Shown: piece after piece, positions 1 through 25,058 of the stretch | Layout: the number at the start of each line of letters is the position of its first letter | How positions within the stretch are numbered: position 1 is the stretch's first letter | Source: Candidatus Nanopusillus sp. | GTDB lineage: Archaea > Nanobdellota > Nanobdellia > Nanobdellales > Nanobdellaceae | Assembly (NCBI GenBank): GCA_049414405.1 | Contig: JBMSAQ010000008.1 | Span: forward strand, 1-32,000 | Reading direction: 5' to 3' | Length of the DNA: 32,000 nucleotides | Notes under the pieces: generated by a model | Told to the model about the DNA's origin: nothing | The model's database searches: none | The model's input: the letters and a program-made list of their open reading frames with translations, nothing else | Program-made: the position numbers and the translations under genes

Positions 1-249
1 ATATTAATATTGTTTATGATATTGTATTTTGTTTCAAATTTGCAAAATGATTTTTATTATCAACCAAATATTGGTAAATATATTGCACAAGATTTCTATG
101 TCAAATTATTATTGTATCCAAATTATTCTTCTATCATAAATCAAACATATTATAATATTTGTATGTGGAAAAATATTATATGTTATGATAATGGAACAAA
201 TATAATAGTTATAACTCAAAATTCTGAATATATATTAAATAAACCATAG
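1..249 (+). CDS. C-terminal part of a hypothetical protein; frame is open to the window edge
   Basis: Frame 1 has no stop from base 1 to TAG at 247-249. N/Y/I-rich composition matches neighbouring genes. No recognisable motif. Confidence 0.35.
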   Translation: MLILFMILYFVSNLQNDFYYQPNIGKYIAQDFYVKLLLYPNYSSIINQTYYNICMWKNIICYDNGTNIIVITQNSEYILNKP

Positions 250-323
250 CCCCCATCGTCTAGCCAGGTCCAGGATACGGGGTTCTCATCCCCGAGACCC
301 GGGTTCAAATCCCGGTGGGGGCA
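249..323 (+). tRNA. tRNA-Glu, anticodon CUC, no encoded CCA, no intron
   Basis: Manual cloverleaf. Acceptor GCCCCCA/UGGGGGC plus discriminator A. Anticodon stem CGGGG/CCCCG with loop UUCUCAU. T arm CCGGG-UUCAAAU-CCCGG. GC-rich island in AT-rich DNA. Confidence 0.9.
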
Positions 324-7448: not shown

Positions 7449-8006
7449 ATGGCTAAGAGACCATGGAGAATATTTAGAGAAATAGAAAGACCCTATACAA
7501 GATTTTCATATAGTAAATCGTATAATAAAATTCCGGGTGCTCCAGTGTCAAAACTTAGGATGCAGATAATGGGAGTAACAAATATACCAAAAAATCAATG
7601 GAAATATGTTGGTCATCTAATTGCATTACATAACGTTCAAATATCTGATTATTCATTAGAATCAGTAAGAACAAATATATTAAAATACTTGGAAAGTGAA
7701 GTAAAAGAATTCTTATTCATTATAAGAAAATATCCACACCATGTTGTAAGAGAACATGCATTAGTATACGGTGCTGGTGCAGATAGAATTTCACAGGGAA
7801 TGAGGCATGCATTTGGAAAGCCATATACAAGAGCTGCTCAAGTATTCTATAAGGACATTATTTTATCAATATATTACAATAAGCAAGAATTCACAAGTAG
7901 AATAAGTTTCTATTTAGATGTTGCAAGAAAAAAATTGTCAGGAAAATATAAGAAATATATAGGAGAAAATAAGCCTGAAAAAACTATTTTATCATCTGTT
8001 GTCTAG
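7449..8006 (+). CDS. rpl10e: 50S ribosomal protein L10e (uL16)
   Basis: MAKRPWRIFREIERPYTR..., YGAGADRISQGMRHAFGKP. Confidence 0.88.
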   Translation: MAKRPWRIFREIERPYTRFSYSKSYNKIPGAPVSKLRMQIMGVTNIPKNQWKYVGHLIALHNVQISDYSLESVRTNILKYLESEVKEFLFIIRKYPHHVVREHALVYGAGADRISQGMRHAFGKPYTRAAQVFYKDIILSIYYNKQEFTSRISFYLDVARKKLSGKYKKYIGENKPEKTILSSVV

Positions 8007-9078
8007 ATATTTCATATTCTAATAATAATAGTTTTTTCAAATCTTTTATATCTTTGGAAATAAACAATCTTCCCCGTCCATATTTTACTATTTCTTTTGC
8101 AATTTTTTCTCCTTCACTATTTAATTGTATACCAATTATTGATATATAATAATATTGACTCAATTCTTTAGCTAACTTTAAAGTTCTTTCTACTGGATTT
8201 TTTCCCTTTGTTGGCAATGCATCGGTTATTAATATTATATGCCCTCTTTCTCCTTTATTTAATAAAAAATTAAATGCTAAAGCAATATCTGTACTTCCAT
8301 TTGGTATAATCATTAGTATATCCATTATATCCTTCAACCCTTTAACATTATTATATTCTTTAACAATCTTATCATTAAATAATATTATATCTAATAGATT
8401 ATTATCCTCTAATATCTTTGATATTAATAATATTAAAGCTTTTTTTGCTTCAAATATTTTCTCTCCAATCATGCTCCCAGATACATCTAATAAAATTATA
8501 TATTTGCCACCCTTACTTTCTCTTTTAACATCAACAACGAATCTTACAACATCTTTATTCTTTATAAATTTTCTTATTGTTTCTTTTATATTAATTTTAT
8601 TATATTTATCTCCTATACTAAAATATTTCTTGTAAAATTCTTCATCATTTCCAATATAATATGATAGATATTTTCCATATTCAAATATTCCTTCAATTTC
8701 CTTTTCTATATTTCCTATTAAATATTTAGAATATTCCATTAAAGATTTCTCGGTTAATTCTCCAGTTTCATTTATATACCCTTCGCTAATTAGTATTTCC
8801 TTTAATTTGTTTAGAGATTTTTTAAATTCCTTATTAAATCTATAATCTTTATCCTCTCTTATTCTTTTTTCATCGTATTCAGTTAGTTTCGATAGTATAT
8901 CAGAATATTCTCTTTTATTTTCCATAATTTTATCTATATCAAATATTGGATATCCTTCTTTTATAATCTTTTCAATTAATTCGTTTATACCTTTTTTAAT
9001 ATCTTTTGAGCTATATTTAAAGGATTCTCCAGGTCTATTTATTAAATTTTCCGAATCAACTCCGAAAATCTTTTCCAA
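7984..9078 (-). CDS. von Willebrand factor A (vWA) domain protein, partner of the upstream AAA+ ATPase
   Basis: MIDAS DxSxS motif in ILLDVSGSM. vWA fold in the C-terminal half (ITDALPTKG). 23-nt overlap with the upstream ATPase ORF. Confidence 0.75.
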   Translation of the reverse strand: MEKIFGVDSENLINRPGESFKYSSKDIKKGINELIEKIIKEGYPIFDIDKIMENKREYSDILSKLTEYDEKRIREDKDYRFNKEFKKSLNKLKEILISEGYINETGELTEKSLMEYSKYLIGNIEKEIEGIFEYGKYLSYYIGNDEEFYKKYFSIGDKYNKINIKETIRKFIKNKDVVRFVVDVKRESKGGKYIILLDVSGSMIGEKIFEAKKALILLISKILEDNNLLDIILFNDKIVKEYNNVKGLKDIMDILMIIPNGSTDIALAFNFLLNKGERGHIILITDALPTKGKNPVERTLKLAKELSQYYYISIIGIQLNSEGEKIAKEIVKYGRGRLFISKDIKDLKKLLLLEYEISRQQMIK

Positions 9079-10096
9079 TTATGAAAGAATTCCATTGATT
9101 TCTTATGTATTCTTCTTCATTTGTTTCCATCTTATATGATGGTTTTAATCTTATTCTATGAGGTAATATTGATAATAAAGATTCGAATATATGTTGGATT
9201 TCAACATTTTCTTTATTATCTATCATTGCTAATGCTTGGGTTTTTTCATAAATACCAATAGTGGATCTAACCGATGGTTTCCTTTCCAATTTATCATCTT
9301 TTCTTAATTTTTGTATAAATTCAATTGTTAATTCCAACAATTTTTCTGGAAAATTAACATCTAAATTTTTCCCGTATTTTAATATAATTTTCTTTTCTTC
9401 TTCAATATCTTTTGGATAATCCAAATTTATTATATCGAATCTATCTAGTAATACATCAGATATTTTTTCTGTTCCATAATAACTTTCAGGATTCATGGTA
9501 GCAATAAATATTATATCCAATGGTATTTGAAATTCATACATTCCAATTGTTATTTTCTTTTCTTCTAACAGTTCTAATAAACTATTTTGAACTTTTGGAG
9601 GAGCCCTATTTATTTCATCAAAAAACAATATGCCATGATGTGCCCGGAATATTTTCCCTGGTATAAAAGATTCTAAAGAATGTATACCATATTTTAATGC
9701 TTTTGAAGGATCAATATCTCCAATTAAATCTTCAACAGATAAATCATAAGAACCTTGTATTCTAATAAATCTATCTTCACCTTTTATTTTTATAAAAGGG
9801 CCTTCTCTCCATTTTTTTCTGTATTCTTCTGAGACAAAAGGGAATTCTTCGTATGCCCATAGTGGAATTCCATCCGGAAAATCTATTTCTGGCAATAGTT
9901 TTGCTATATTTTTTGCTAAAGTTGTTTTTCCAGTACCGGGAGGTCCAATTATTAATATATTTCTTCCGGAAATTAATGAAGATAATATTTGTCTTTTTGC
10001 ATTTTCTTGTCCAATTATAGAATCAAGGGGATCTTTTCTTTCCTTAACATAATTGTTAATTATTATTCTTCTTATCTCCTCCCTTATTTTAATCAT
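9056..10096 (-). CDS. AAA+ ATPase, ChlI/MoxR (Mg-chelatase subunit I-like) family
   Basis: Walker A GPPGTGKTT. Walker B and sensor region in ILFFDEINRAPPKVQNSLLELLEE...FIATMNPE...LLDRF. Confidence 0.8.
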   Translation of the reverse strand: MIKIREEIRRIIINNYVKERKDPLDSIIGQENAKRQILSSLISGRNILIIGPPGTGKTTLAKNIAKLLPEIDFPDGIPLWAYEEFPFVSEEYRKKWREGPFIKIKGEDRFIRIQGSYDLSVEDLIGDIDPSKALKYGIHSLESFIPGKIFRAHHGILFFDEINRAPPKVQNSLLELLEEKKITIGMYEFQIPLDIIFIATMNPESYYGTEKISDVLLDRFDIINLDYPKDIEEEKKIILKYGKNLDVNFPEKLLELTIEFIQKLRKDDKLERKPSVRSTIGIYEKTQALAMIDNKENVEIQHIFESLLSILPHRIRLKPSYKMETNEEEYIRNQWNSFIIGKDFRS

Positions 10097-10822: not shown

Positions 10823-11002
10823 TGTGATTAATAATATAATTGATAGTTGGTAAGAGTTTGATATTAATATTGGTATTGGGCCTATTAATATTAACCCGGC
10901 AAATTTTGTATTGGAAGAATTTGACAATAAATAAATAAATAATAAAATTATTGAAATAAATAAGAAAATAATTGCCAAAATTAGAAATATGTTATTGCTC
11001 AT
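10769..11002 (-). CDS. Small 2-3 TM membrane protein (DUF131-like, GPIPI motif)
   Basis: 77 aa and almost entirely hydrophobic, with LILIGPIPIL in the centre. Its start overlaps the upstream ORF's end by 11 nt. It overlaps the HAD 3' end convergently by 54 nt. Confidence 0.5.
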   Translation of the reverse strand: MSNNIFLILAIIFLFISIILLFIYLLSNSSNTKFAGLILIGPIPILISNSYQLSIILLITLIIILIILIIFFYKIVI

Positions 11003-11267
11003 CTATCTTTAATTTATAAAATTTTGAATGGCCAAAATGAACTATCAAATCAAACCCATATTTATCTAAATATATTGGTATATCACATCCGCCAAAATCA
11101 GATCCAAACCAAATATATATTTCAAGATCTTTATATTTTTCCTTTATTTTATCATATAATTCTTTTGAATATGGTTTTAGCCCATCGGGAAATTGTAATA
11201 ATACTTTTTTATATTTTTTTCTATCTAATATTTCAAATATTTTATCTAATTCAAAATCTATCTCCAT
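10992..11267 (-). CDS. Diphthamide synthase Dph2, N-terminal domain only (91 aa fragment or split gene)
   Basis: KKVLLQFPDGLKPYSKELYDKI...GSDFGGCDIPIYLDKYGFDLIVHFGHS aligns with the first ~85 aa of archaeal Dph2 (~340 aa), including the first Fe-S Cys (GxCD). There is no continuation in any frame. Confidence 0.7.
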   Translation of the reverse strand: MEIDFELDKIFEILDRKKYKKVLLQFPDGLKPYSKELYDKIKEKYKDLEIYIWFGSDFGGCDIPIYLDKYGFDLIVHFGHSKFYKLKIDEQ

Positions 11268-12013
11268 TTAAATATTTTTAATATATTATCTATAAGGCTA
11301 TTTCTAATTTCTAAACTCTTTCCAGTTATTTCTTCTGCAATTTTTATTATATCTTTAGATGCTATAGAATTTATATTGTAGTCTATCAGAGGTATACCCT
11401 TATCCATTGAAATTTGTACATTTTTATCGTAATGAATTACTCCAATTATTTGTTTTTTAAAAAATCTTTCAATTCTTATATAATTCACTCGTCCTTTAAT
11501 TTTATTTAAAACAATCCCAAAAGTTTTTATATCCAAATTATCTAAAACTTTTGTAACTCTGTATGCATCTATCAATGATGATTTTTCAACATTTGTTATC
11601 AATATTACTTCTTCTGAAGCTTTTAATGCCTCTACTGCTTCTTTGCCAATTCCAGCGGCAGAATCTATGATAATATAATCGAAATCATCATATATCTTTA
11701 TTATTCCCTTATGTAATTTTTCTGTAGAAATATATATTAAGTCCTTTATATCTAAACTTCCAGGAATTATATAAAAATTTTCTTTATACTCTTTTATACA
11801 GTCATCTATATCAATCTCACTCCTTAAAAATTTATGTATATTGTTATTTTCATTACCTAATCCAAGATTTATTGATACATTTGGTGTACTTAAGTTAAAA
11901 TCAATTAATAATGTTTTAAAATTTAATAATGAGACAGCTCTAGATAAATTTATAGAAAAGAAAGTTTTTCCTACCCCACCTTTTCCAGAGGATATTGTAT
12001 ATACTTTTGCCAT
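11258..12013 (-). CDS. minD: MinD/ParA-family P-loop ATPase
   Basis: Deviant Walker A SSGKGGVGKT, IIIDSAAG, and archaeal MinD-like length (251 aa). Confidence 0.85.
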   Translation of the reverse strand: MAKVYTISSGKGGVGKTFFSINLSRAVSLLNFKTLLIDFNLSTPNVSINLGLGNENNNIHKFLRSEIDIDDCIKEYKENFYIIPGSLDIKDLIYISTEKLHKGIIKIYDDFDYIIIDSAAGIGKEAVEALKASEEVILITNVEKSSLIDAYRVTKVLDNLDIKTFGIVLNKIKGRVNYIRIERFFKKQIIGVIHYDKNVQISMDKGIPLIDYNINSIASKDIIKIAEEITGKSLEIRNSLIDNILKIFKWR

Positions 12014-12465
12014 TATATATATTTATTAATAATCGTAGAAAATTTTTTAACAGATTCTGTAATATCTTTTAACATTTTTATATTTATTTCAAATTCTTCT
12101 CCACCTATTGTCTTAAATTTTATAACCATACTTTTTCTATATTCATTTATTATCTTTGCATCAGCATTTAAAGCAAGTTTTAATAGTTTATAATACCTTA
12201 ATGATTCTTCAAGTTCTTTGTCCTTTGTGATTTCGATTATTTTTTTATATCTTTTGATTGGGTTATTTGGAATTTCATCAATCTTTTTATTTTCATATAG
12301 TTTCTTAAAATATAATTCAATTGAATAGTCATAATATTCAATAACTGCTTTTATAAAACTTTTAACAGTTTCCAACCCCTTATTATTCTTTAATGAAACA
12401 TTAAATATATGCAAAACTTCCTTATATCTTCTATTATATTCTAAATCTTCTTCTAAATTAGGCAT
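12013..12465 (-). CDS. Hypothetical helical protein, first gene of the MinD operon
   Basis: 150-aa ORF whose stop overlaps the minD start by 1 nt. K/E/Y-rich with no recognisable motif. Confidence 0.5.
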   Translation of the reverse strand: MPNLEEDLEYNRRYKEVLHIFNVSLKNNKGLETVKSFIKAVIEYYDYSIELYFKKLYENKKIDEIPNNPIKRYKKIIEITKDKELEESLRYYKLLKLALNADAKIINEYRKSMVIKFKTIGGEEFEINIKMLKDITESVKKFSTIINKYI

Positions 12466-12613
12466 GATATATAAATATTTGCAATATATACTAAAGCCGC
12501 AAAAATAATTATAAATATTATTACTTTATTTCTATTTAATTTTATTTTTGACTTTTCTTTTCCAAACCTATATAGCCCAAGGTACGCAAATAATGGCACA
12601 CGGTCAGACATAA

Positions 12614-12621
12614 TTTATATA
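12614..12621 (+). promoter_or_regulatory. Archaeal TATA box (TTTATATA) for the structured RNA starting near 12644
   Basis: Canonical TTTAWATA-type octamer. Its centre lies ~26 nt upstream of the first base of the terminal helix (G12644). Confidence 0.55.
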
Positions 12622-12643
12622 GTTGGAAGAAATATATAAAAAG

Positions 12644-12873
12644 GTGGCCGTAGGAAGGTCTGCTTACCGATAAGCCACCGAGGAATCGGAGGGGGAAACC
12701 CTTGGCTACATAACCAGAAATCACGGGCATATACTCGATGAAGATGAAGAGTCAATACCCAGAGGTAACTCTGGGTAAACTTGGAGAGGGTGTATGTACC
12801 TTGAGAAGTATGTCCTGGCGGTACAAGGCCTGTCCGCTTAGAAAAATATATACTAAAAGCAGCCTACGGCCAC
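12644..12873 (+). ncRNA. Structured ~230-nt RNA, best read as a miniaturised RNase P RNA
   Basis: GC-rich island. Terminal helix GUGGCCGUAGG (12644-12654) / CCUACGGCCAC (12863-12873). CR-I-like AGGAAGGUCUGCUU (12652-12665) pairs with AAGCAGCCU (12857-12865) around a bulged U12659, which is a P4-like arrangement. P8/P9-like tetraloop hairpins at 12678-12689 (GGAA) and 12691-12702 (GGGG-GAAA-CCCU). ACCAGAAA at 12713-12720. GUAA hairpin at 12758-12775, then GUAAACUUGGAG. CUGUCC at 12830-12835. Loops are GNRA/GNAR only on the + strand. Confidence 0.55.
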
Positions 12874-12876
12874 ACA

Positions 12877-14589
12877 TTAATAACTTTTTCCAACATATAC
12901 ATAATATTTTACATTTGTATTGCAAAAAATACATTTTTTATTCTTTGCATCTTCTGGTATAACATCTGTTCCTCTTACATCTAATGAATATTTTTCTTTA
13001 ATATTCTTTGCACATTCTTCTCTCATACAAAAAGGAACCTTAAATGCTACATTTTTATCTAAATTATTTTCCAAATCCTTTAAACTGTCTATTTTTAATA
13101 TTTTATTTTCAAAATACTTTCTTGCCCTTTCCTTAATCTCTTTATCATATTCAATAATTAACCTATCTAACTCATTTAATAAATTTTCTAGTTTAACTTC
13201 ATAATTTTTTGATTTACTGTCATATTGCCTTACGGATATTGTAACTGTATTTTTTTCTAATTCTTTTTTTCCGATAGATATCCTAAATGGTACCCCCATT
13301 AATTCGTATTGATTAAATTTCCATCCAGGACTTTTTGTATCATCTTTATCAATTTTTACTCTATATTTTTCTTTTAATAAATTATATACATCTTCACAAT
13401 ATTTTAATATTTTACTTCTTTCATCTTCAGAATAATATATTGGAATGATTATTATTTGAATGTGGGATATTTCAAAAGGTAATATTAAACCTTTATTATC
13501 TCCATGTATTGAAATTACTGCACTTAAGGTTCTCATAGATATTCCAAATGATGTTTGCCAAACAAATTTCTTATTGACTAATTTATTTTCATTAAATTTA
13601 TTTTTAATTATATTATTCATTTTGTTTATTAAATTCTTATTATCTTCAGATATATTTCCATCAAATTCGATGTTTTCTTCATAAGATCTGATTGATTCTT
13701 TATTGTTATTATCATATAATCTTATTTTTATTTTATCTTCAATAATTTCTATTTCATATCTGTAATTATTTTCATTAAAGGCCTCGAATTTGTTTTTATC
13801 TATTTTTATAAATGGATGTTCATCCTCAAAAATAATATTAAATGCTTTAGAAAAATTTCTCCCCAATAAGTGTGTAGTTCCAATTTGTAAAAACTTTCCA
13901 TCCGGCAATATAGTATCTGCAGCAAATGTGTAATCTGCTCCAGCAAATTTATCCCAATCTGGTCTTTTTATCCATATGTGTGGTACTGATAAATGATCCC
14001 AAAAAACTTTTGAATATATTTCTATAGATTTCTTTATCGTTTTTTCAGCATCATCCAAATCCCTATGTGCTGTATGTGCTTCGTTCCATAAAATTTCTCT
14101 TCCTCTAACCAATGGTTTTGTTGCTTTAGTTTCATATCTATATACAGTATTTGTCATGTAAGTTAATAGAGGTAGATCTCTATATGATCTTATCCATAAA
14201 GAAAACATGTAATACATTTCTGTTTCAGATGTCGGTCTTAATATGTATTTTATTTCTTTTTCTTCTTCTACAGGTTTTGAGGGAGTAACATAAAATACTT
14301 CAGATTCAAAACCTTTTATATGTTCACTTTCTCTCTTAAATATATCATACGGAATTAATATTGGAAACCAGTAAGGTTCAAATCCACACTTTTCTAATTC
14401 ATTTTCTAAAATATTTAATATTTTCTTAATTGCAAAATATCCATTTGGATAGTAGACAGGCATTCCTTTTATAGGATATCTATCATCAATGATTTTAGAA
14501 ATTCTTATTATGTCGTTATACCATTCAGAAAAATTGACATTTTTATTTAAAATGCTCTCTTTCATAGTAGAAAAATCACAGTGATACAT
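12877..14589 (-). CDS. proS: Prolyl-tRNA synthetase (archaeal/eukaryotic type) with an ~80-aa insertion; the true start may be M9 (14565)
   Basis: FSEWYNDII..., RPTSETEMY, TYMTNTVYRYE, RGREILWNEAHTAH, QTSFGISMR, and a C-terminal Zn-like CMREEC...CIFC domain ending in Y. Confidence 0.9.
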   Translation of the reverse strand: MYHCDFSTMKESILNKNVNFSEWYNDIIRISKIIDDRYPIKGMPVYYPNGYFAIKKILNILENELEKCGFEPYWFPILIPYDIFKRESEHIKGFESEVFYVTPSKPVEEEKEIKYILRPTSETEMYYMFSLWIRSYRDLPLLTYMTNTVYRYETKATKPLVRGREILWNEAHTAHRDLDDAEKTIKKSIEIYSKVFWDHLSVPHIWIKRPDWDKFAGADYTFAADTILPDGKFLQIGTTHLLGRNFSKAFNIIFEDEHPFIKIDKNKFEAFNENNYRYEIEIIEDKIKIRLYDNNNKESIRSYEENIEFDGNISEDNKNLINKMNNIIKNKFNENKLVNKKFVWQTSFGISMRTLSAVISIHGDNKGLILPFEISHIQIIIIPIYYSEDERSKILKYCEDVYNLLKEKYRVKIDKDDTKSPGWKFNQYELMGVPFRISIGKKELEKNTVTISVRQYDSKSKNYEVKLENLLNELDRLIIEYDKEIKERARKYFENKILKIDSLKDLENNLDKNVAFKVPFCMREECAKNIKEKYSLDVRGTDVIPEDAKNKKCIFCNTNVKYYVYVGKSY

Positions 14590-14680: not shown

Positions 14681-14699
14681 GAGGGAATATATAGTCTCA
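14681..14699 (+). other. 5' strand of the 23S pre-rRNA processing stem (pairs with 17615-17633)
   Basis: gagggaatatatagtctca is the exact reverse complement of tgagactatatattccctc, giving a 19-bp perfect helix. GGGG (14673-14676) / CCCC (17636-17639) extend it across bulges. Confidence 0.85.
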
Positions 14700-17614
14700 G
14701 GAACCCGCCCGGTGGATGCCTTGGCTCGGAAGCCGAAGAAGGGCGCGGCAAGCTGCGAAAAGCCAGAGGGAGGTGCATGCAACCGTTGATCTCCGGATTC
14801 CCGAATGGGATATCCTGCCGAAAGGCATCCCGTAAGGGAAGGGAACGCGGGGAAGTGAAACATCTTAGTACCCGCAGGAATAAAAAACAAATTGTGATTT
14901 CCCGAGTAGGGGCGACCGAAAAGGAATAAGCCCAAACCGAATCCTCTAAAGTAATTTAGAGGAGATGTGGGGTAAAGGAGCGGGAGCTTCCCGTTATTGT
15001 ATTCTTAGAACTCCGGTGGAAGTCCGGGGCCGTAGAGGGTGACAGCCCCGTATGAGAATACAATAACGGAATTTCCCGTTTCCGGAGTACTGGCGGTTGG
15101 ATTTCCGTTGGGAATTTGGGGGAAACTAGCCCCCAAGGCTAAATACTCTCCGAGTCCGATAGTGTATCAGTAGGGCGACCGAAAGGTGAAAAGAACCCTT
15201 GGCAGGGGGTGAAAAGAGCCTGAAACCGGGCGGGGATAGTCTGGTAGGGCTAGTTAAGCATTCCATCTGGGAAAATCTGGTGACGGATGAGTACCAGATA
15301 GGATGCTAGCTGGTTCTACCGTGAGTTTGGAAGAACTTGCGGGGGAGTATACCCAAGTGGCGAGGTTAAGGTTTATACCGAAGCCACAGGGAAACCGAAA
15401 GCCCGCAACCTGGGCTTTCCCAGGTGAGGGGCGCCGTCTCATAAGGGCGGTTTAGTCACTCGGGTATGACCGGAAGCCGGGCGATCTACCCCGGGGCAGG
15501 GTGAAGCGGGGTTTCCCGTGGAGGCCCGAAGAGGTGGAGCTTACTCTTCTCATGACCCCGGGGTAGAGGTGAAAAGCCACTCGGGCCCGGTGATAGCCGG
15601 TCCCCGCCGAAACTGACCCCAGCCAGGTCTCGGGTTAGGATCCCTATGGTGTAGAGCGACGGATTCTGTACGGGTTTCCGTACGGAGTCCAACTCCGAAG
15701 CTATAGGGTCCGTAGCCCGGGAAACGGGGGTTGCGGGAAAGCCGCAACTCCGAGACGGGAACAACCGAGACCGAGGTTAAGGCCCCAAAGTGCTGGCTAA
15801 ACGATGCTGAAGGAGTCTGCCCCCTAAGACATCGGGGATGTGGGCCTAATAGTGGCTATCATCTAAGGAGTGTGTAACAACTCACCCGACGAGGGGGTAG
15901 GCTCCGAAAACGGACGGGTCTAAGCCAGCCGCCGAGACCTCGGTCCGCTGGCAAATGCCAGCGCGAGGTAGGCGGGCGTCCCGATGGCCTAGAAGGGTTC
16001 CTGAAAGGGAGCCTGGAGCCGTTGGGAATGAAGATCCCCGCGGTAGTAAGAATTAGACGGGTGAGAATCCCGTCGGCCGAAAGGGGAAAGGTATCCCAGG
16101 CAATGAAGATCAGCCTGGGGTTAGTCGATCCTAATCCAGGCTCCGAGAGGAGTCTGGAGAAAGGGAAAGGGGTTAATATTCCCCTACCGCCCCGATAGAT
16201 GCGGCAACGCAACGCCCTTTCCTGACTCGGAGGGCTAGGCATACATGGGGGTGGGGTAAAACCCACTTACTGTGCCAAGGGGGATAGGACCGGGGAGTAC
16301 CGTCATGGTGAGAACCGGTCTAAACCCTGATGGGCCCGAAAGGGTTACGCTGAGGCCTTCCGGCAATGAAAAGGGAAAGGGTGCGATTCGGGGCGATCGT
16401 ACCGAAATCCAGCATAGGTCCCCTGGGTGAGAAGCCTAAGGCCGTGGGGGTCAAGCCGGTCTAGGGAACTTGGCAAATTGGTCCCGTAACTTCGGGAGAA
16501 GGGATGTCTGCGGTGTGGACCGCAGGTCGCAGTGACAAGGACGGGCGGACTGTTTATCAAAAACATAGCTCCCAGCAAGCCCGAAAGGGTTTGTACTGGG
16601 GGTGACGTCTGCTCGGTGCCGGTATCTGAATCCCCCGTTCAAGGGGGGTAAGGACCGGTAAACGGCGGGGGTAACTCTGACCCTCTTAAGGTAGCGTAAT
16701 GCCTTGCCAGTTAAATGCTGGCTCTGCGAACGACGTAACTAGCCCGTCACTGTCCCGGGCCGGCGCCCCCTGAAAAGCTATCCTGGTGAGAAGGCCAGGG
16801 ACTTCCGATGGGTAAGAAAGACCCCGTGAAGCTTAACCGCAGCCTGTTGTTGCTCTGAAGAACCTGGTGTGTAGGGTAGCGGGGAGCAATGAATTCCTGC
16901 CGCTAGGTAGGGAGGATGCGACGATGAAACACCCGCCTCTGGGTTCTTCAGGGCTAACTTGAAAGGGGACAGCGGCAGGTGGGCGGTTTGGCTGGGGCGG
17001 CACCCTGCCGAAAAGATATCGGCAGGGTCCATAAGGTCAGCTCAGGCGGGTCAGAAATCCGCCGTAGAGGACAAGGCCAAAAGCTGGCTTGACTGCGCCC
17101 TGACCATCAAGGGGCGCAGGGGGGAAACCTAGGCCTAGCGAACCCCGTACTCTCACTAGTGGGGGTACGGGCTGGCGGAAAAGCTACTCCGGGGGTAACA
17201 GCGCCGTCGCGGGCGAGAGCCCCCATTGACCCCGCGGTTTGCGACATCGATGTCGTCTCTCTCCATCCTGGTGGTGCAGAAGCCGCCAAGGGTGGGGGTG
17301 TCCACCCATTAAAGGGGATCGTGAGATGGGTTCAGAACGCCGCGAGGCAGTTCGGTTATAACTGTCGGAAGTGCTGGCCGCCTGAGGGGAAGGTCCGCCT
17401 AGTACGAAAGGAACGGCGGGCCGGGGCCTCTGGTGTACGGGCTGTCCGAGAAGGGCATGCCCGGTAGCTACGCCTCAGGGGATAAGCCCTGAAAGCATCT
17501 AAGGGTGAAGCCCCTCTCAAAAATAGGCGGCCGTTAAGGGGTCGGATAAAAGATCCGGCTCAGAGCGGCGGTGTAAGCTCCGAAGAGGAGTTCAGCCGAC
17601 CGCTTGAAGTCCCG
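14700..17614 (+). rRNA. 23S (LSU) rRNA; ends approximate
   Basis: GGUGGAUGCCUUGGC at 14711-14725. PTC-region blocks (...AUCGAUGUCG..., GGGUUCAGAACG...). Sarcin-ricin loop at 17401-17414. About 2.9 kb and GC-rich. No AT-rich insertion suggesting an intron. Confidence 0.95.
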
Positions 17615-17644
17615 TGAGACTATATATTCCCTCGACCCCAAATT

Positions 17645-23562: not shown

Positions 23563-23565
<3 letters not shown>
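23549..23565 (-). other. 3' strand of the 16S pre-rRNA processing stem (pairs with 25105-25124)
   Basis: Sense AUUCCGCUGCAAUCCCC pairs with leader GGGG-AUA-AUUGCAGCGGAAU: 13 bp, a 3-nt bulge, then 4 bp. Confidence 0.8.

Positions 23566-25058
<1,493 letters not shown>

What the first reader, a model, noticed from the sequence alone, without database searches (positions are those of the whole stretch)
12614..12875. Promoter-equipped ~230-nt RNase P-like RNA with no room for P2/P3
Seen in sequence:
- A GC-rich island sits in AT-rich DNA, with a canonical TTTATATA box centred ~26 nt before G12644.
- The ends pair: GUGGCCGU(AGG) at 12644-12654 with (CCU)ACGGCCAC at 12863-12873.
- Directly after the 5' strand comes AGGAAGGUCUGCUU (compare CR-I, GAGGAAAGUCC).
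- A12656-G-G / bulged U12659 / CUGCUU pairs with AAGCAG-CCU (12857-12865). This reproduces helix P4 with its conserved bulged U.

The order of the other elements is collinear with E. coli M1 RNA as I recall it:
- two adjacent tetraloop hairpins, CCGA-GGAA-UCGG and GGGG-GAAA-CCCU (M1 P8/P9 contains GGGGGAAACCC);
- ACCAGAAA (CR-II-like);
- a GUAA hairpin followed by GUAAACUUGGAG (CR-III-like GGUAAAC...GGAG);
- CUGUCC...AGAA before the P4 3' strand.

What is unusual:
- P1 abuts CR-I, so P2/P3 are absent.
- The RNA is ~70-100 nt shorter than type A archaeal RNAs.
- It carries AU-rich inserts (12842-12858).
- It has a tandem GAUGAA-GAUGAA (12737-12748) that could be a K-turn/L7Ae site.

N. equitans is known to lack RNase P entirely, so a minimal RNase P RNA in a related reduced genome would be an informative intermediate.
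Basis: partly seen in the sequence, partly recalled or inferred. Interest (0 to 1): 0.75.

Follow-up and report, generated by a model that had tools for sequence, protein, structure and literature searches.

The report
Nanoarchaeal RNase P RNA lacking P2/P3
This is the gene for the RNA subunit of RNase P (the enzyme that trims tRNA precursors) in a tiny hot-spring nanoarchaeon; it was already reported as oddly short, but comparison across relatives now shows it is well preserved and has lost two helices (P2 and P3) previously found in every cellular RNase P RNA.

Summary
Window 12644-12873 (+) encodes a 230-nt RNA with its own TTTATATA box and an oligo-T run.

- **Family match:** Rfam's archaeal RNase P model aligns end to end (66.6 bits, E 2e-18). 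That is below the gathering score of 84, but four syntenic orthologues pass it.
- **Structure:** 33 distinct orthologues from Nanopusillus, Nanobsidianus, YN1 and Nanobdella give a covariation-supported fold (98.3% of cells paired; 41 of 66 pairs compensatory).
- **Kept:** P1, P4 with its bulged U, P5, the P7-P8-P9-P10/11 cruciform, a long P12 with a double K-turn, and all five conserved regions.
- **Missing:** P2, P3, L15/P16/P17 and P6. P15 is a 2-bp stub.
right on the essentials. It mislabelled CR-III (really UUGAGAAG, 12801-12808) and called the CR-IV/CR-V linker an insert.
- **Prior work:** Podar 2013 reported a short, "unfoldable" RNase P RNA in Nst1, and Samanta 2016 could not find POP5 there. 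The fold and the P2/P3 loss seem undescribed.
- **Inference:** Pop5 sits on the P2/P3 junction in the M. jannaschii structure, so RNA and protein were probably lost together. I could not test this.

The strong structural conservation argues for function, not decay.

The parts
12615..12622 (+). TATA box (TTTATATA) of the RNase P RNA gene
   Evidence: The core TTATATA is invariant in 14 orthologues and the first T in 11 of 14. There are 21-22 intervening nt to G1 in most of them, and up to 28. Promoter function is inferred from archaeal promoter rules.
12644..12873 (+). RNase P RNA gene (230 nt)
   Evidence: Rfam RNaseP_arch matches over its full length at 66.6 bits, E 2.2e-18. Orthologues score 84.3-91.3, at or above the gathering score of 84. 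98.3% of cells pair and 41 of 66 pairs are compensatory in 33 sequences.
12644..12651 (+). P1 5' strand, pairs with 12866-12873
   Evidence: 8 bp, 100% paired, 4 compensatory pairs.
12652..12665 (+). CR-I (AGGAAGGUCU) and P4 5' strand (12656-12665) with bulged U12659; follows P1 directly, with no P2 or P3
   Evidence: Aligns to the model's GAGGAAAgUCC. Model positions 12-34 are deleted. U16 is invariant in 33 of 33 sequences.
12666..12668 (+). P5 5' strand (ACC), pairs with 12820-12822
   Evidence: A-U changes to G-C in YN1 and Nanobdella; 100% paired.
12674..12677 (+). P7 5' strand (GCCA), pairs with 12816-12819
   Evidence: All 4 pairs co-vary and 100% are paired. The rival MFE pairing with 12703-12706 has no compensatory change and 83% pairing.
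12678..12689 (+). P8 hairpin (CCGA-GGAA-UCGG)
   Evidence: 2 of 4 pairs compensatory. Aligned to the model's P8.
12690..12703 (+). P9 hairpin with GAAA loop
   Evidence: 4 of 5 pairs compensatory.
12704..12712 (+). P10/11 5' strand, pairs with 12809-12815
   Evidence: The P10 G-C pairs are invariant. 3 of 4 P11 pairs are compensatory.
12715..12721 (+). CR-II (CAGAAAU), J11/12
   Evidence: Aligns to the model's CAGAAA. NAGAAAU occurs in 32 of 33 sequences.
12725..12800 (+). P12: basal stem, double K-turn, middle stem, and distal stem with a GNRA loop (12756-12777)
   Evidence: 7, 3 and 8 compensatory pairs in the three segments.
12737..12748 (+). Double K-turn bulged strand (GAU-GA-A twice), opposite GGAGA at 12783-12787
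   Evidence: The KT3 G.A/A.G pairs are in 33 of 33 sequences and the KT2 pairs in 32 of 33. In Nanobdella both KT2 pairs become A-U. The motif follows Lai 2017 (PMC5499556). The exact register is not resolved.
12801..12808 (+). CR-III (UUGAGAAG), J12/11
   Evidence: Aligns to the model's aUGAAACG. UUGAGAA occurs in 32 of 33 sequences.
12823..12835 (+). J5/15 (ACAA) and a vestigial P15 (GG-N4-5-CC)
   Evidence: The model's 37-nt P15-P17 interior is replaced by 1 nt. GG and CC are invariant while the loop varies. The 2-bp stem shows no covariation.
12836..12857 (+). CR-IV (GCUUAGAAAAAU), AUAUAU linker in place of the P2 3' strand, and CR-V (ACUAAA)
   Evidence: The model's P2 3' strand GCcgcc is deleted. 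The linker is identical in 32 of 33 sequences and CR-V is ACUAAA in 32 of 33.
12857..12865 (+). P4 3' strand (AAGCAGCCU)
   Evidence: 5 of 9 pairs compensatory, 99% paired.
12866..12873 (+). P1 3' strand (ACGGCCAC)
12885..12889 (+). T5 run, the probable archaeal terminator; lies antisense within the last codons of ProRS
   Evidence: Read directly from the sequence. A T-rich stretch is present here in all 14 orthologues but is interrupted in several. Its conservation cannot be separated from ProRS coding constraint. Function is inferred.

Best explanation
The locus encodes the catalytic RNA subunit of RNase P in a Nanopusillus-type nanoarchaeon.

Transcription starts at or next to G12644, from a TATA box at 12615-12622, and probably ends at the T-run at 12885-12889.

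The RNA keeps a complete type-A-like specificity domain. This comprises the P7-P8-P9-P10/11 cruciform, the CR-II/CR-III module that in other RNase P enzymes stacks on the tRNA elbow, and a long P12 with a double K-turn for L7Ae and a GNRA cap.

Its catalytic domain is pared down to P1, P4 (with the universal bulged U), P5 and a 2-bp P15 stub, joined by CR-I, CR-IV and CR-V. P2, P3, L15, P16, P17 and P6 are gone.

With Rpp21-Rpp29, Rpp30 and L7Ae it most likely removes 5' leaders from pre-tRNAs by Mg2+-dependent hydrolysis in the P4 core, without base-pairing to the tRNA 3' end.

Shown here: homology to RNase P RNA, the secondary structure, the absence of P2/P3, conservation of the promoter box and the gene position, and purifying selection on structure across a clade whose RNAs are only 62-96% identical.

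Inferred: catalytic activity, the protein partners, and the idea that P2/P3 and Pop5 were lost together.
For: - Rfam RNaseP_arch aligns over its whole length (1-288) at E 2.2e-18, and nothing else comes close.
- Syntenic orthologues score 91.3, 86.6, 85.5 and 84.3 bits, at or above the curated cut-off of 84.
- Homology-based fold: 98.9% of cells paired with 37 of 66 pairs compensatory in 14 sequences. In 33 sequences the figures are 98.3% and 41 of 66. No shuffle out of 500 reaches these values, and the slid controls give 32-43% pairing.
- RNAalifold independently recovers P1, P4 with its bulge, P8, P9, P10/11 and P12.
- The bulged U, both K-turn G.A pairs and all five conserved regions are (near-)invariant.
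- The TATA core TTATATA is invariant at a near-fixed distance.
- The gene sits in the same place (23S rRNA, ProRS, RNA) in every lineage.
- It is absent from the corresponding place in N. equitans, which is known to lack RNase P (PMC4919922).
- Podar 2013 found p21, p29 and p30 genes in Nst1.
- In M. jannaschii, Pop5 sits on the P2/P3 junction and Rpp30 contacts P2-P3 (PMC6565675). POP5 was not detected in Nst1 (PMC4919917).
- The one tRNA gene in the window has no encoded CCA and no TATA box at the leaderless distance.
Against: - The window copy scores below Rfam's gathering cut-off (66.6 against 84).
- P2 and P3 belong to the set of stems described as common to all three domains (PMC2858038), and no activity has been shown for an RNA without them.
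- CR-V reads ACUAAA where the archaeal consensus is ACAGAA, so a strongly conserved G is an A in all 33 sequences.
- P15 has only 2 invariant base pairs and no covariation.
- No RNase P protein gene lies in the window, and I could not survey whole genomes.
- The POP5 absence rests on a draft single-cell genome.
- There are no expression data.
- Only one tRNA gene was available for the leader test.
Confidence: 0.85

Rival explanations
1. The RNA is a decaying relic of RNase P RNA, on its way to the complete loss seen in N. equitans, and is no longer functional. This is Podar 2013's 'partial degradation' reading taken literally.
For: It is short, lacks P2/P3 and P15-P17, scores below the Rfam cut-off, and deviates at a conserved CR-V position. 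A sister lineage lost RNase P altogether (PMC4919922). POP5 was reported missing.
Against: A pseudogene would not keep 98% base pairing through 41 compensatory pair changes while the sequences diverge to 62% identity. It would also not keep an invariant TATA core, an invariant bulged U and near-invariant conserved regions. The same 227-231 nt architecture is fixed in Nanopusillus, Nanobsidianus, YN1, Nanobdella and deeper MAG lineages.
Confidence: 0.04
2. The RNA is a functional, structured ribonucleoprotein RNA descended from RNase P RNA, but repurposed. It might have lost tRNA 5' processing and now cleave or scaffold something else, with tRNAs made leaderless as in N. equitans.
For: Removal of the P2-P3 stack and (reportedly) Pop5 strips the part of the enzyme that holds CR-IV and the 5' leader in M. 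jannaschii. There is a G-to-A change in CR-V. N. equitans shows that the phylum can do without RNase P.
Against: Every element used for tRNA recognition and catalysis elsewhere is retained and conserved: the CR-II/CR-III module, J5/15, P4 with its bulged U, CR-I and CR-IV. tRNA-Glu has no TATA box at -29 to -22. The nearest TATA-like element (227-239) would start transcription inside the tRNA, which implies a 5' leader or co-transcription. [quoted passage not shown]
Confidence: 0.08
3. It belongs to a different RNA family (SRP RNA, a C/D-box sRNA suggested by the GAUGA repeats, or a group I intron fragment), or the region is protein-coding.
For: There are weak sub-threshold Rfam matches to Intron_gpI (18 bits, E 0.03) and to a C/D snoRNA (13.5 bits, E 8.6). 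ORFs of 60-74 aa overlap the region.
Against: RNaseP_arch beats every other family by about 16 orders of magnitude in E-value and covers the whole RNA. No SRP match was reported. The GAUGA repeats pair with GA dinucleotides inside P12, as in the RNase P double K-turn. Substitutions are pairwise-compensatory rather than codon-patterned.
Confidence: 0.01

Closest known systems
Archaeal type A RNase P RNA (Rfam RF00373; e.g. Pyrococcus furiosus, Methanothermobacter)
   Same: P1, P4 with a bulged U, P5, the P7-P8-P9-P10/11 cruciform, CR-I to CR-V, and a long P12 with a double K-turn and a GNRA cap. It has no P13/P14 or P18. Full-length covariance-model alignment.
   Different: It lacks P2 and P3 on both strands. 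It also lacks the L15 loop, P16, P17 (with its K-turn KT1) and the P6 pseudoknot, and P15 is a 2-bp stub. CR-V is ACUAAA, not ACAGAA. It is about 58 nt shorter than the consensus and the structure is fully nested, with no pseudoknot.
Archaeal type M RNase P RNA (Methanococcales, Archaeoglobus; 252 nt in M. jannaschii)
   Same: Truncated P15 without the L15 recognition loop, no P16 or P6, and a double K-turn in P12 (PMC4919922, PMC5499556).
   Different: Type M lacks P8 but keeps P2 and P3. This RNA keeps P8 and lacks P2 and P3. In the M. jannaschii enzyme, P2-P3 and Pop5 build the dimer interface (PMC6565675), which cannot form in the same way here.
Type T/P RNase P RNA of Thermoproteaceae (Pyrobaculum; Rfam RNaseP-T)
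   Same: A naturally miniaturised archaeal RNase P RNA found together with loss of a protein subunit (Rpp21 there).
   Different: The reduction is the opposite way round. Type T keeps the whole catalytic domain, including P2, P3, P15-P17 and P6, and loses most of the specificity domain. This RNA keeps the specificity domain and trims the catalytic domain.
Nst1 RNase P RNA reported by Podar et al. 2013 (PMC3655853)
   Same: It is the orthologue: 92.6% identical, same genomic position (L012). Its shortness and the comparison with N. equitans were already published.
   Different: [quoted passage not shown] Here a covariation-supported fold is given, the missing parts are identified precisely, and the RNA is shown to be under structural selection across several genera.
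Highly reduced mitochondrial RNase P RNAs of yeasts (from my own recollection of Seif et al. 2003; not checked here)
   Same: These are natural RNase P RNAs reduced to little more than P1, P4 and CR-I/CR-V, and they have lost P2/P3-type helices.
   Different: They are organellar, extremely AU-rich, lack most of the specificity domain and depend on a large unrelated protein. The RNA here belongs to a cellular organism and retains a full specificity domain.

Membership tests
RNase P RNA (archaeal, Rfam RF00373) | Reaches the curated Rfam gathering score (84 bits) | tested here: inconclusive
   The window copy scores 66.6 bits, below the cut-off, with E 2.2e-18 and a full-length match. Syntenic, fully alignable orthologues score 91.3, 86.6, 85.5 and 84.3 (pass) and 81.9, 68.2 and 63.9 (fail). 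Membership follows by orthology, not from the window's own score.
RNase P RNA (archaeal, Rfam RF00373) | P4 helix with the universally conserved bulged U, flanked by CR-I and CR-V | tested here: met
   9 bp plus bulged U12659; 5 of 9 pairs compensatory; U invariant in 33 of 33; CR-I reads NGGAARGUCY. One deviation: CR-V is ACUAAA against the consensus ACAGAA.
RNase P RNA (archaeal, Rfam RF00373) | CR-II and CR-III flanking P12 in the specificity domain | tested here: met
   AGAAAU (12716-12721) and UUGAGAA (12801-12807) align to the model and are present in 32 of 33 sequences.
RNase P RNA (archaeal, Rfam RF00373) | CR-IV (AGNNNNAU) between P15 and the P4 3' strand | tested here: met
   AGAAAAAU at 12840-12847. 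AG and AU are invariant, and the motif aligns to the model's AGucGAAU.
RNase P RNA (archaeal, Rfam RF00373) | Terminal helix P1 | tested here: met
   8 bp, 100% paired, 4 compensatory pairs.
RNase P RNA (archaeal, Rfam RF00373) | Helices P2 and P3, which are among the stems common to all three domains (PMC2858038) | tested here: not met
   Only 4 nt (AGGA) separate P1 from P4 on the 5' side. Model positions 12-34 and the P2 3' strand are deleted. The same holds in all 33 orthologues.
RNase P RNA (archaeal, Rfam RF00373) | P7-P8-P9-P10/11 cruciform | tested here: met
   P7 has 4 of 4 pairs compensatory, P8 2 of 4, P9 4 of 5 and P11 3 of 4.
RNase P RNA (archaeal, Rfam RF00373) | Cleaves pre-tRNA 5' leaders, alone or with RPPs | not testable with these tools
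   This needs in vitro reconstitution.
RNase P RNA (archaeal, Rfam RF00373) | Genome encodes the protein subunits Rpp21, Rpp29, Rpp30, Pop5 and L7Ae | not testable with these tools
   None lies in the 32-kb window, and there is no Pop5 in the nanoarchaeal DNA held here. Literature for Nst1: p21, p29, p30 and L7Ae present, POP5 not detected.
Archaeal type A structural class | P15 internal loop (L15), P16, P17 and the P6 pseudoknot | tested here: not met
   The model's 37-nt P15 interior is replaced by 1 nt. What remains is GG-N4-5-CC.
Archaeal type M structural class | Absence of P8 (together with absence of L15, P16 and P6) | tested here: not met
   P8 is present and co-varies (12678-12689). 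The P15-region reduction is shared with type M.
Type T/P (Thermoproteaceae) structural class | Specificity domain almost entirely absent; catalytic domain intact | tested here: not met
   The specificity domain is complete (P7-P12, CR-II, CR-III) and the catalytic domain is the part reduced.
Double K-turn module of euryarchaeal RNase P RNAs (Lai 2017) | Two overlapping K-turns in P12: 3-nt bulges followed by tandem G.A/A.G pairs, with the NC helix of one serving as the C helix of the next | tested here: inconclusive
   (GAU)GA-A-(GAU)GA-A lies opposite GGAGA. The G.A/A.G pairs are in 33 of 33 sequences (KT3) and 32 of 33 (KT2), and both KT2 pairs become A-U in Nanobdella. This is consistent with the motif, but the shared helix has 2 rather than 3 pairs in my register. 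L7Ae binding is untested.

The most novel reading that the evidence does not exclude
This would be a fourth archaeal RNase P architecture. A whole clade of hot-spring Nanoarchaeota (Nanopusillus, Nanobsidianus, YN1, Nanobdella) would run an active RNase P whose RNA has discarded the P2-P3 helical stack, until now part of the common core of all cellular RNase P RNAs, together with its protein rider Pop5. The near-invariant AUAUAU linker between CR-IV and CR-V, or some clade-specific factor, would take over the job of positioning CR-IV at the active site. The RNA would then be a stable, selected minimal catalytic domain and not a step towards loss.
Probability: 0.4. Interest if true: 0.72.

Novelty: new variant of a known kind. 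Interest (0 to 1): 0.55.

Why it matters
P1-P4 and P10/11 are treated as the helices shared by all cellular RNase P RNAs, and the cryo-EM structure of the archaeal enzyme places Pop5 and Rpp30 on P2-P3. A natural RNase P RNA that has been conserved over a long period without P2/P3, in a lineage where Pop5 could not be found, gives three things:

1. It redraws the minimal catalytic domain.
2. It offers a clean natural test of what Pop5 and the P2-P3 stack contribute, because they can be added back or a type A RNA can be trimmed to match.
3. It complements the type T RNA, which lost the other domain. Together the two bracket what an archaeal RNase P can do without.

It also changes the reading of the Nst1 RNA from 'degraded' to 'streamlined and selected'. 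In practice, standard annotation misses the gene in several genomes because it scores below Rfam's cut-off, so a dedicated covariance model would fix that.

Tried and rejected
- **Single-sequence MFE fold.** Its three private helices (31-34/61-64, 164-169/206-211, 170-182/188-199) have 0-1 compensatory changes and 83-90% pairing. I rejected them in favour of P7, P11, P5 and P15.
- **RNAalifold's alternative helix 174-178/191-195.** It is broken in KM16 and YN1, where P7 is kept by compensatory changes. Rejected.
- **P1 extension AGG/CCU.** Pair 9-222 is broken in 3 of 14 sequences, so these bases are assigned to P4.
- **Other RNA families and the minus strand.** Only chance-level Rfam matches appear.
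- **Overlapping ORFs of 60-74 aa.** Rejected, because the substitutions are compensatory in stems.
- **The 150-aa ORF next to the RNA gene as a hidden Pop5 or new subunit.**
  - It is conserved and clade-restricted.
  - Its model is confident (pLDDT 88).
  - Foldseek gives no RNase P protein among its listed matches, only weak HEPN-toxin similarity (TM 0.5-0.6, E about 0.4).
  - HHalign against Pop5 gives 0.3% probability.
  - The whole gene block is syntenic, so adjacency alone says little.
- **P2/P3 supplied in trans by a second small RNA.** The window has no other unexplained GC-rich island. This is not excluded genome-wide.
- **tRNA 5'-leader test.** Only one tRNA gene (Glu) was within reach, and its upstream region is 94% identical in the one relative available. 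Inconclusive.
- **The 52-aa ORF as Sec61-beta.** This was my own recollection, and Pfam does not support it.
- **The 13-nt repeat of the linker sequence upstream.** Most likely a TATA-box coincidence.
- **Metagenome scan.** It added 17 sequences but no deeper lineage.
Full report
**What is in the sequence**

Window 12556-12879 is a 44-50% GC island in DNA that is about 22% GC locally and 30% over the whole window. A TTTATATA box lies at 12615-12622, and 21 nt later the sequence GUGGCCGU begins (12644). Its complement ACGGCCAC ends at 12873. A T5 run follows at 12885-12889.

The 230-nt stretch folds far better than shuffled versions (z = -5.6). The reverse strand does too (z = -5.2), so folding energy alone does not give the strand.

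**What family it belongs to**

At Rfam's curated thresholds the window shows only 23S rRNA (14688-17626, +), 16S rRNA (23565-25058, -) and tRNA-Glu (249-323); nothing is reported at the locus.

A permissive scan of 12500-13000 gives one strong match. RNaseP_arch (RF00373) aligns over its whole length (1-288) to 12641-12877 on the + strand, at 66.6 bits and E 2.2e-18, against a gathering score of 84. The next best matches have E of 0.03 or worse.

The alignment is informative:
- The model's P1, CR-I, P5, P7, P8, P9, P10/11, CR-II, P12, CR-III, CR-IV, CR-V and P4 3' strand are all matched.
- Model positions 12-34 are deleted. These are the P2 5' strand, J2/3 and nearly all of the P3 hairpin.
- The P2 3' strand (GCcgcc) is deleted.
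- The 37-nt interior of P15 (L15, P16, P17) is replaced by a single nucleotide.

**Organism and relatives**

The flanking gene at 12877-14589 (-) is prolyl-tRNA synthetase. Its closest relatives are Nanopusillus and Nanobsidianus genomes: 95% identity to MAG RSNP5, and 88-89% to Nst1 and N. acidilobi. Identity falls to 71% in Nanoarchaeota YN1, 63% in Nanobdella aerobiophila and 46% in N. equitans.

nhmmer finds the RNA immediately downstream of, and convergent with, ProRS in 13 nanoarchaeal loci. It does not find it in N. equitans or in a more distant MAG.

A pattern scan of metagenomes added 20 loci, of which 17 carry new distinct sequences, all close relatives; one is identical to the window. 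Two deeper MAG lineages were reached through a neighbouring gene.

Rfam scores for the orthologues are 91.3 (CTOTU), 86.6 (KM08), 85.5 (YN1), 84.3 (L103), 81.9 (L100), 68.2 (N. acidilobi) and 63.9 (Nanobdella). Four therefore pass the curated cut-off. The window RNA is their orthologue: same length, same position, alignable end to end.

**Secondary structure**

I wrote a structure from the homology with type A RNAs and tested it on the alignments.
- In 14 sequences, 98.9% of cells pair and 37 of 66 pairs carry a change on both sides.
- In 33 distinct sequences, whose RNA identity goes down to 62%, 98.3% pair and 41 of 66 pairs are compensatory.
- In both cases 0 of 500 shuffles reach the observed values, and sliding the partners by 1-3 columns drops pairing to 32-43%.

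Helices, numbered with position 1 = 12644:

| Element | Positions |
|---|---|
| P1 | 1-8 / 223-230 |
| P4 | 13-15 and 17-22 / 214-222, with U16 bulged |
| P5 | 23-25 / 177-179 |
| P7 | 31-34 / 173-176 |
| P8 | 35-38 / 43-46 |
| P9 | 47-51 / 56-60 |
| P10 | 61-62 / 171-172 |
| P11 | 66-69 / 166-169 |
| P12 | three segments: 82-93 / 145-157, 106-109 / 136-139, 113-121 / 126-134, closed by a GNRA loop |
| P15 stub | 184-185 / 191-192 |

P7 is the clearest case. GCCA/UGGC becomes GGCA/UGCC, GUUA/UAAC, ACUA/UAGU, AACG/CGUU and ACCA/UGGU. The MFE alternative, which pairs 31-34 with the invariant GGC at 61-63, has no compensatory change.

RNAalifold, given only the alignment, recovers P1, P4 with the bulge, P8, P9, P10/11 and all of P12. 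Its one different helix is broken exactly where P7 co-varies.

Because P2, P3 and P6 are absent, the whole structure is nested and has no pseudoknot.

**Why P2 and P3 are really absent**

In RNase P RNA the 3' strand of P2 lies upstream of the P4 3' strand, and the 3' strand of P1 lies downstream of it. Here the terminal helix's 3' strand (12866-12873) directly follows the P4 3' strand, so that helix is P1.

On the 5' side only AGGA (12652-12655) separates P1 from P4. That leaves no room for a P2 strand or a P3 hairpin.

Where the P2 3' strand should be there is AUAUAU (12846-12851), identical in 32 of 33 sequences. The sequence upstream of G12644 lies between the TATA box and the start site and is not conserved outside close relatives, so it cannot supply P2.

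**Conserved single-stranded elements**

| Element | Sequence | Frequency |
|---|---|---|
| CR-I | NGGAARGUCY | all 33 |
| CR-II | NAGAAAU | 32 of 33 |
| CR-III | UUGAGAA | 32 of 33 |
| J5/15 | ACAA or AAAA | all 33 |
| CR-IV | AG-NNNN-AU, AG and AU invariant | all 33 |
| CR-V | ACUAAA | 32 of 33 |

CR-V differs from the archaeal consensus ACAGAA at the G, which is an A throughout the clade. I cannot say what that means for catalysis.

**K-turns**

The tandem GAUGA-A-GAUGA-A (12737-12748) faces GGAGA (12783-12787). The pairs G103.A142 and A104.G141 are present in 33 of 33 sequences, and G97.A144 and A98.G143 in 32 of 33.

In Nanobdella both members of the latter pairs change, giving two A-U pairs. 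That supports the register and shows that one K-turn has been replaced by ordinary helix.

The arrangement fits the 'double K-turn' of type A and type M RNAs, in which the NC helix of one K-turn serves as the C helix of the next (PMC5499556). In my register the shared helix has two pairs, not three.

**What was already known**

Podar et al. 2013 reported that Nst1, unlike N. equitans, has an RNase P. [quoted passage not shown]

Samanta et al. 2016 added that POP5 appears absent in Nst1 and suggested that the catalytic domain had been remodelled (PMC4919917).

I found no later description of the architecture in the searchable library. So the existence of the gene and the 'intermediate' idea are published. 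As far as I can tell, the fold, the precise list of missing helices and the evidence for selection are not.

**Mechanism**

Reviews describe three archaeal forms:
- Type A is the bacterial type A form without P13/P14 and P18.
- Type M also lacks P8, P16, P6 and the L15 loop.
- Type T/P lacks nearly the whole specificity domain (PMC4919922).

The stems common to all three domains are given as P1-P4, P10 and P11 (PMC2858038). This RNA fits none of the three types. It has a type-A specificity domain, a type-M-like P15, and uniquely no P2 or P3.

[quoted passage not shown] Rpp30 contacts P2-P3. Rpp29-Rpp21-L7Ae bind P1, P9, the T-loops and P12 (PMC6565675).

The parts retained here are exactly those that bind Rpp21, Rpp29 and L7Ae and that form the active site. 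The parts lost are the Pop5/Rpp30 platform. I therefore propose that P2/P3 and Pop5 were lost together, and that the enzyme still cleaves pre-tRNA using P4, CR-I, CR-IV and CR-V with the CR-II/CR-III anchor. That proposal is inference.

Nothing Pop5-like lies in the window or in the nanoarchaeal loci held here, whereas the same tblastn search finds Pop5 in 15 Methanosarcinales loci as a positive control.

The single tRNA gene available (Glu) encodes no CCA and has no TATA box at the leaderless distance. That is weakly consistent with a need for 5' processing.

**Rival readings**

A decaying relic is very unlikely, given 41 compensatory pairs, an invariant TATA core and fixed length across genera. 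A repurposed RNP cannot be excluded without biochemistry, but it is disfavoured because every tRNA-recognition and catalytic element is kept. Other RNA families and protein coding are excluded.

**Side leads**

- The promoter region is mirror-symmetric. A second TTTATATA on the minus strand (12640-12633) lies 21 nt upstream of the ATG (12611) of a conserved 52-aa membrane-protein ORF. The two genes therefore appear to share interleaved divergent promoters.
- The next gene (150 aa, 12013-12465, -) is a clade-restricted protein of unknown function with a confident predicted fold. It resembles HEPN toxins only weakly and is unrelated to Pop5.

**Verdict**

The RNA is an RNase P RNA of a new structural variant. 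Its existence was already reported, which limits the surprise.

Noticed in passing
window 12611-12644: Two identical TTTATATA boxes lie on opposite strands (12615-12622 on +, 12640-12633 on -). Each is 21 nt upstream of a start: G12644 of the RNase P RNA, and the ATG at 12611 of a 52-aa ORF, which would be a leaderless mRNA. This looks like a pair of interleaved divergent promoters within 34 bp.
   Followed up: partly
window 12453-12611 (-): A 52-aa ORF encodes a small protein with a conserved PLF-Y-GLY-FGKEKSKIKL motif and a C-terminal transmembrane helix. It is conserved at 56-90% identity out to Nanobdella. It reminded me of archaeal Sec61-beta, but Pfam gives no support.
   Followed up: partly
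window 12013-12465 (-): A 150-aa ORF with an invariant HI[FY]NVSLKNNKGLE block sits in the same position beside the RNase P RNA gene in every lineage. It is restricted to this nanoarchaeal clade (18 clusters, no Pfam domain). The AlphaFold model has pLDDT 88. Its only fold matches are HEPN-domain toxins (TM 0.5-0.6, E about 0.4). It is not Pop5-like.
   Followed up: yes
window 12483-12495 and 12845-12857: The 13-mer AATATATACTAAA occurs twice on the + strand. One copy is inside the RNA (the CR-IV/CR-V linker). The other is 18-30 nt upstream of the ATG of the 150-aa minus-strand ORF, where its reverse complement looks like that gene's TATA box. There are 4 matches with at most 1 mismatch against 0.6 expected, and the second copy is kept in about half of the close relatives. 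This is probably coincidence, but it could mean the linker doubles as an antisense TATA element.
   Followed up: partly
window 12852-12857 (CR-V): CR-V reads ACUAAA in 32 of 33 orthologues (ACAAAA in one). The Rfam archaeal consensus is ACAGAA, in upper case and so strongly conserved. The G is therefore replaced by A throughout the clade.
   Followed up: partly
L011 7687-7913 (Nanobdella aerobiophila RNase P RNA): The first K-turn of P12 is converted to plain helix. Both sheared pairs (G.A and A.G) become A-U through changes on both strands, while the second K-turn is intact. This is a natural single-K-turn variant.
   Followed up: partly
window 14688-17626 (+) and 23565-25058 (-): The 23S and 16S rRNA genes are unlinked and on opposite strands, about 6 kb apart. 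Between them lie type IV pilus/archaellum-type ATPase and membrane genes (T2SSE, two T2SSF), ribosomal protein S19 and a tRNA-guanine transglycosylase. The block 23S rRNA, ProRS, RNase P RNA is conserved in all relatives examined.
   Followed up: no
window 10992-11267 (-): A 91-aa ORF matches only the first 58 positions of the 302-position diphthamide synthase profile. It is an N-terminal fragment of a split gene, as Podar 2013 listed for Nst1 (DPH2 split).
   Followed up: no
window 249-323 (+) and upstream: tRNA-Glu(CUC) has no encoded CCA and no TATA box at -29 to -22. A TATA-like AATATATATTAAA at 227-239 is too close to serve as its promoter, and an ORF (10-249) ends at the first base of the tRNA. 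This suggests a 5' leader or co-transcription.
   Followed up: partly
L082, L084, L096 (metagenome RNase P RNAs): Three close relatives carry U18-to-C without the matching change at A218. That leaves a C.A opposition in the middle of P4, in an otherwise perfectly paired helix.
   Followed up: no
window 7984-10096 (-): An adjacent MoxR-type AAA+ ATPase (346 aa) and a VWA-domain protein (364 aa) overlap by 23 nt. This is a typical MoxR-VWA chaperone pair.
   Followed up: no
L024-L047 (Methanolobus, Methanococcoides and other Methanosarcinales loci): A Pop5 gene lies about 5-6 kb downstream of ProRS in 15 Methanosarcinales loci (tblastn E down to 1e-26). It served only as a positive control.
   Followed up: no
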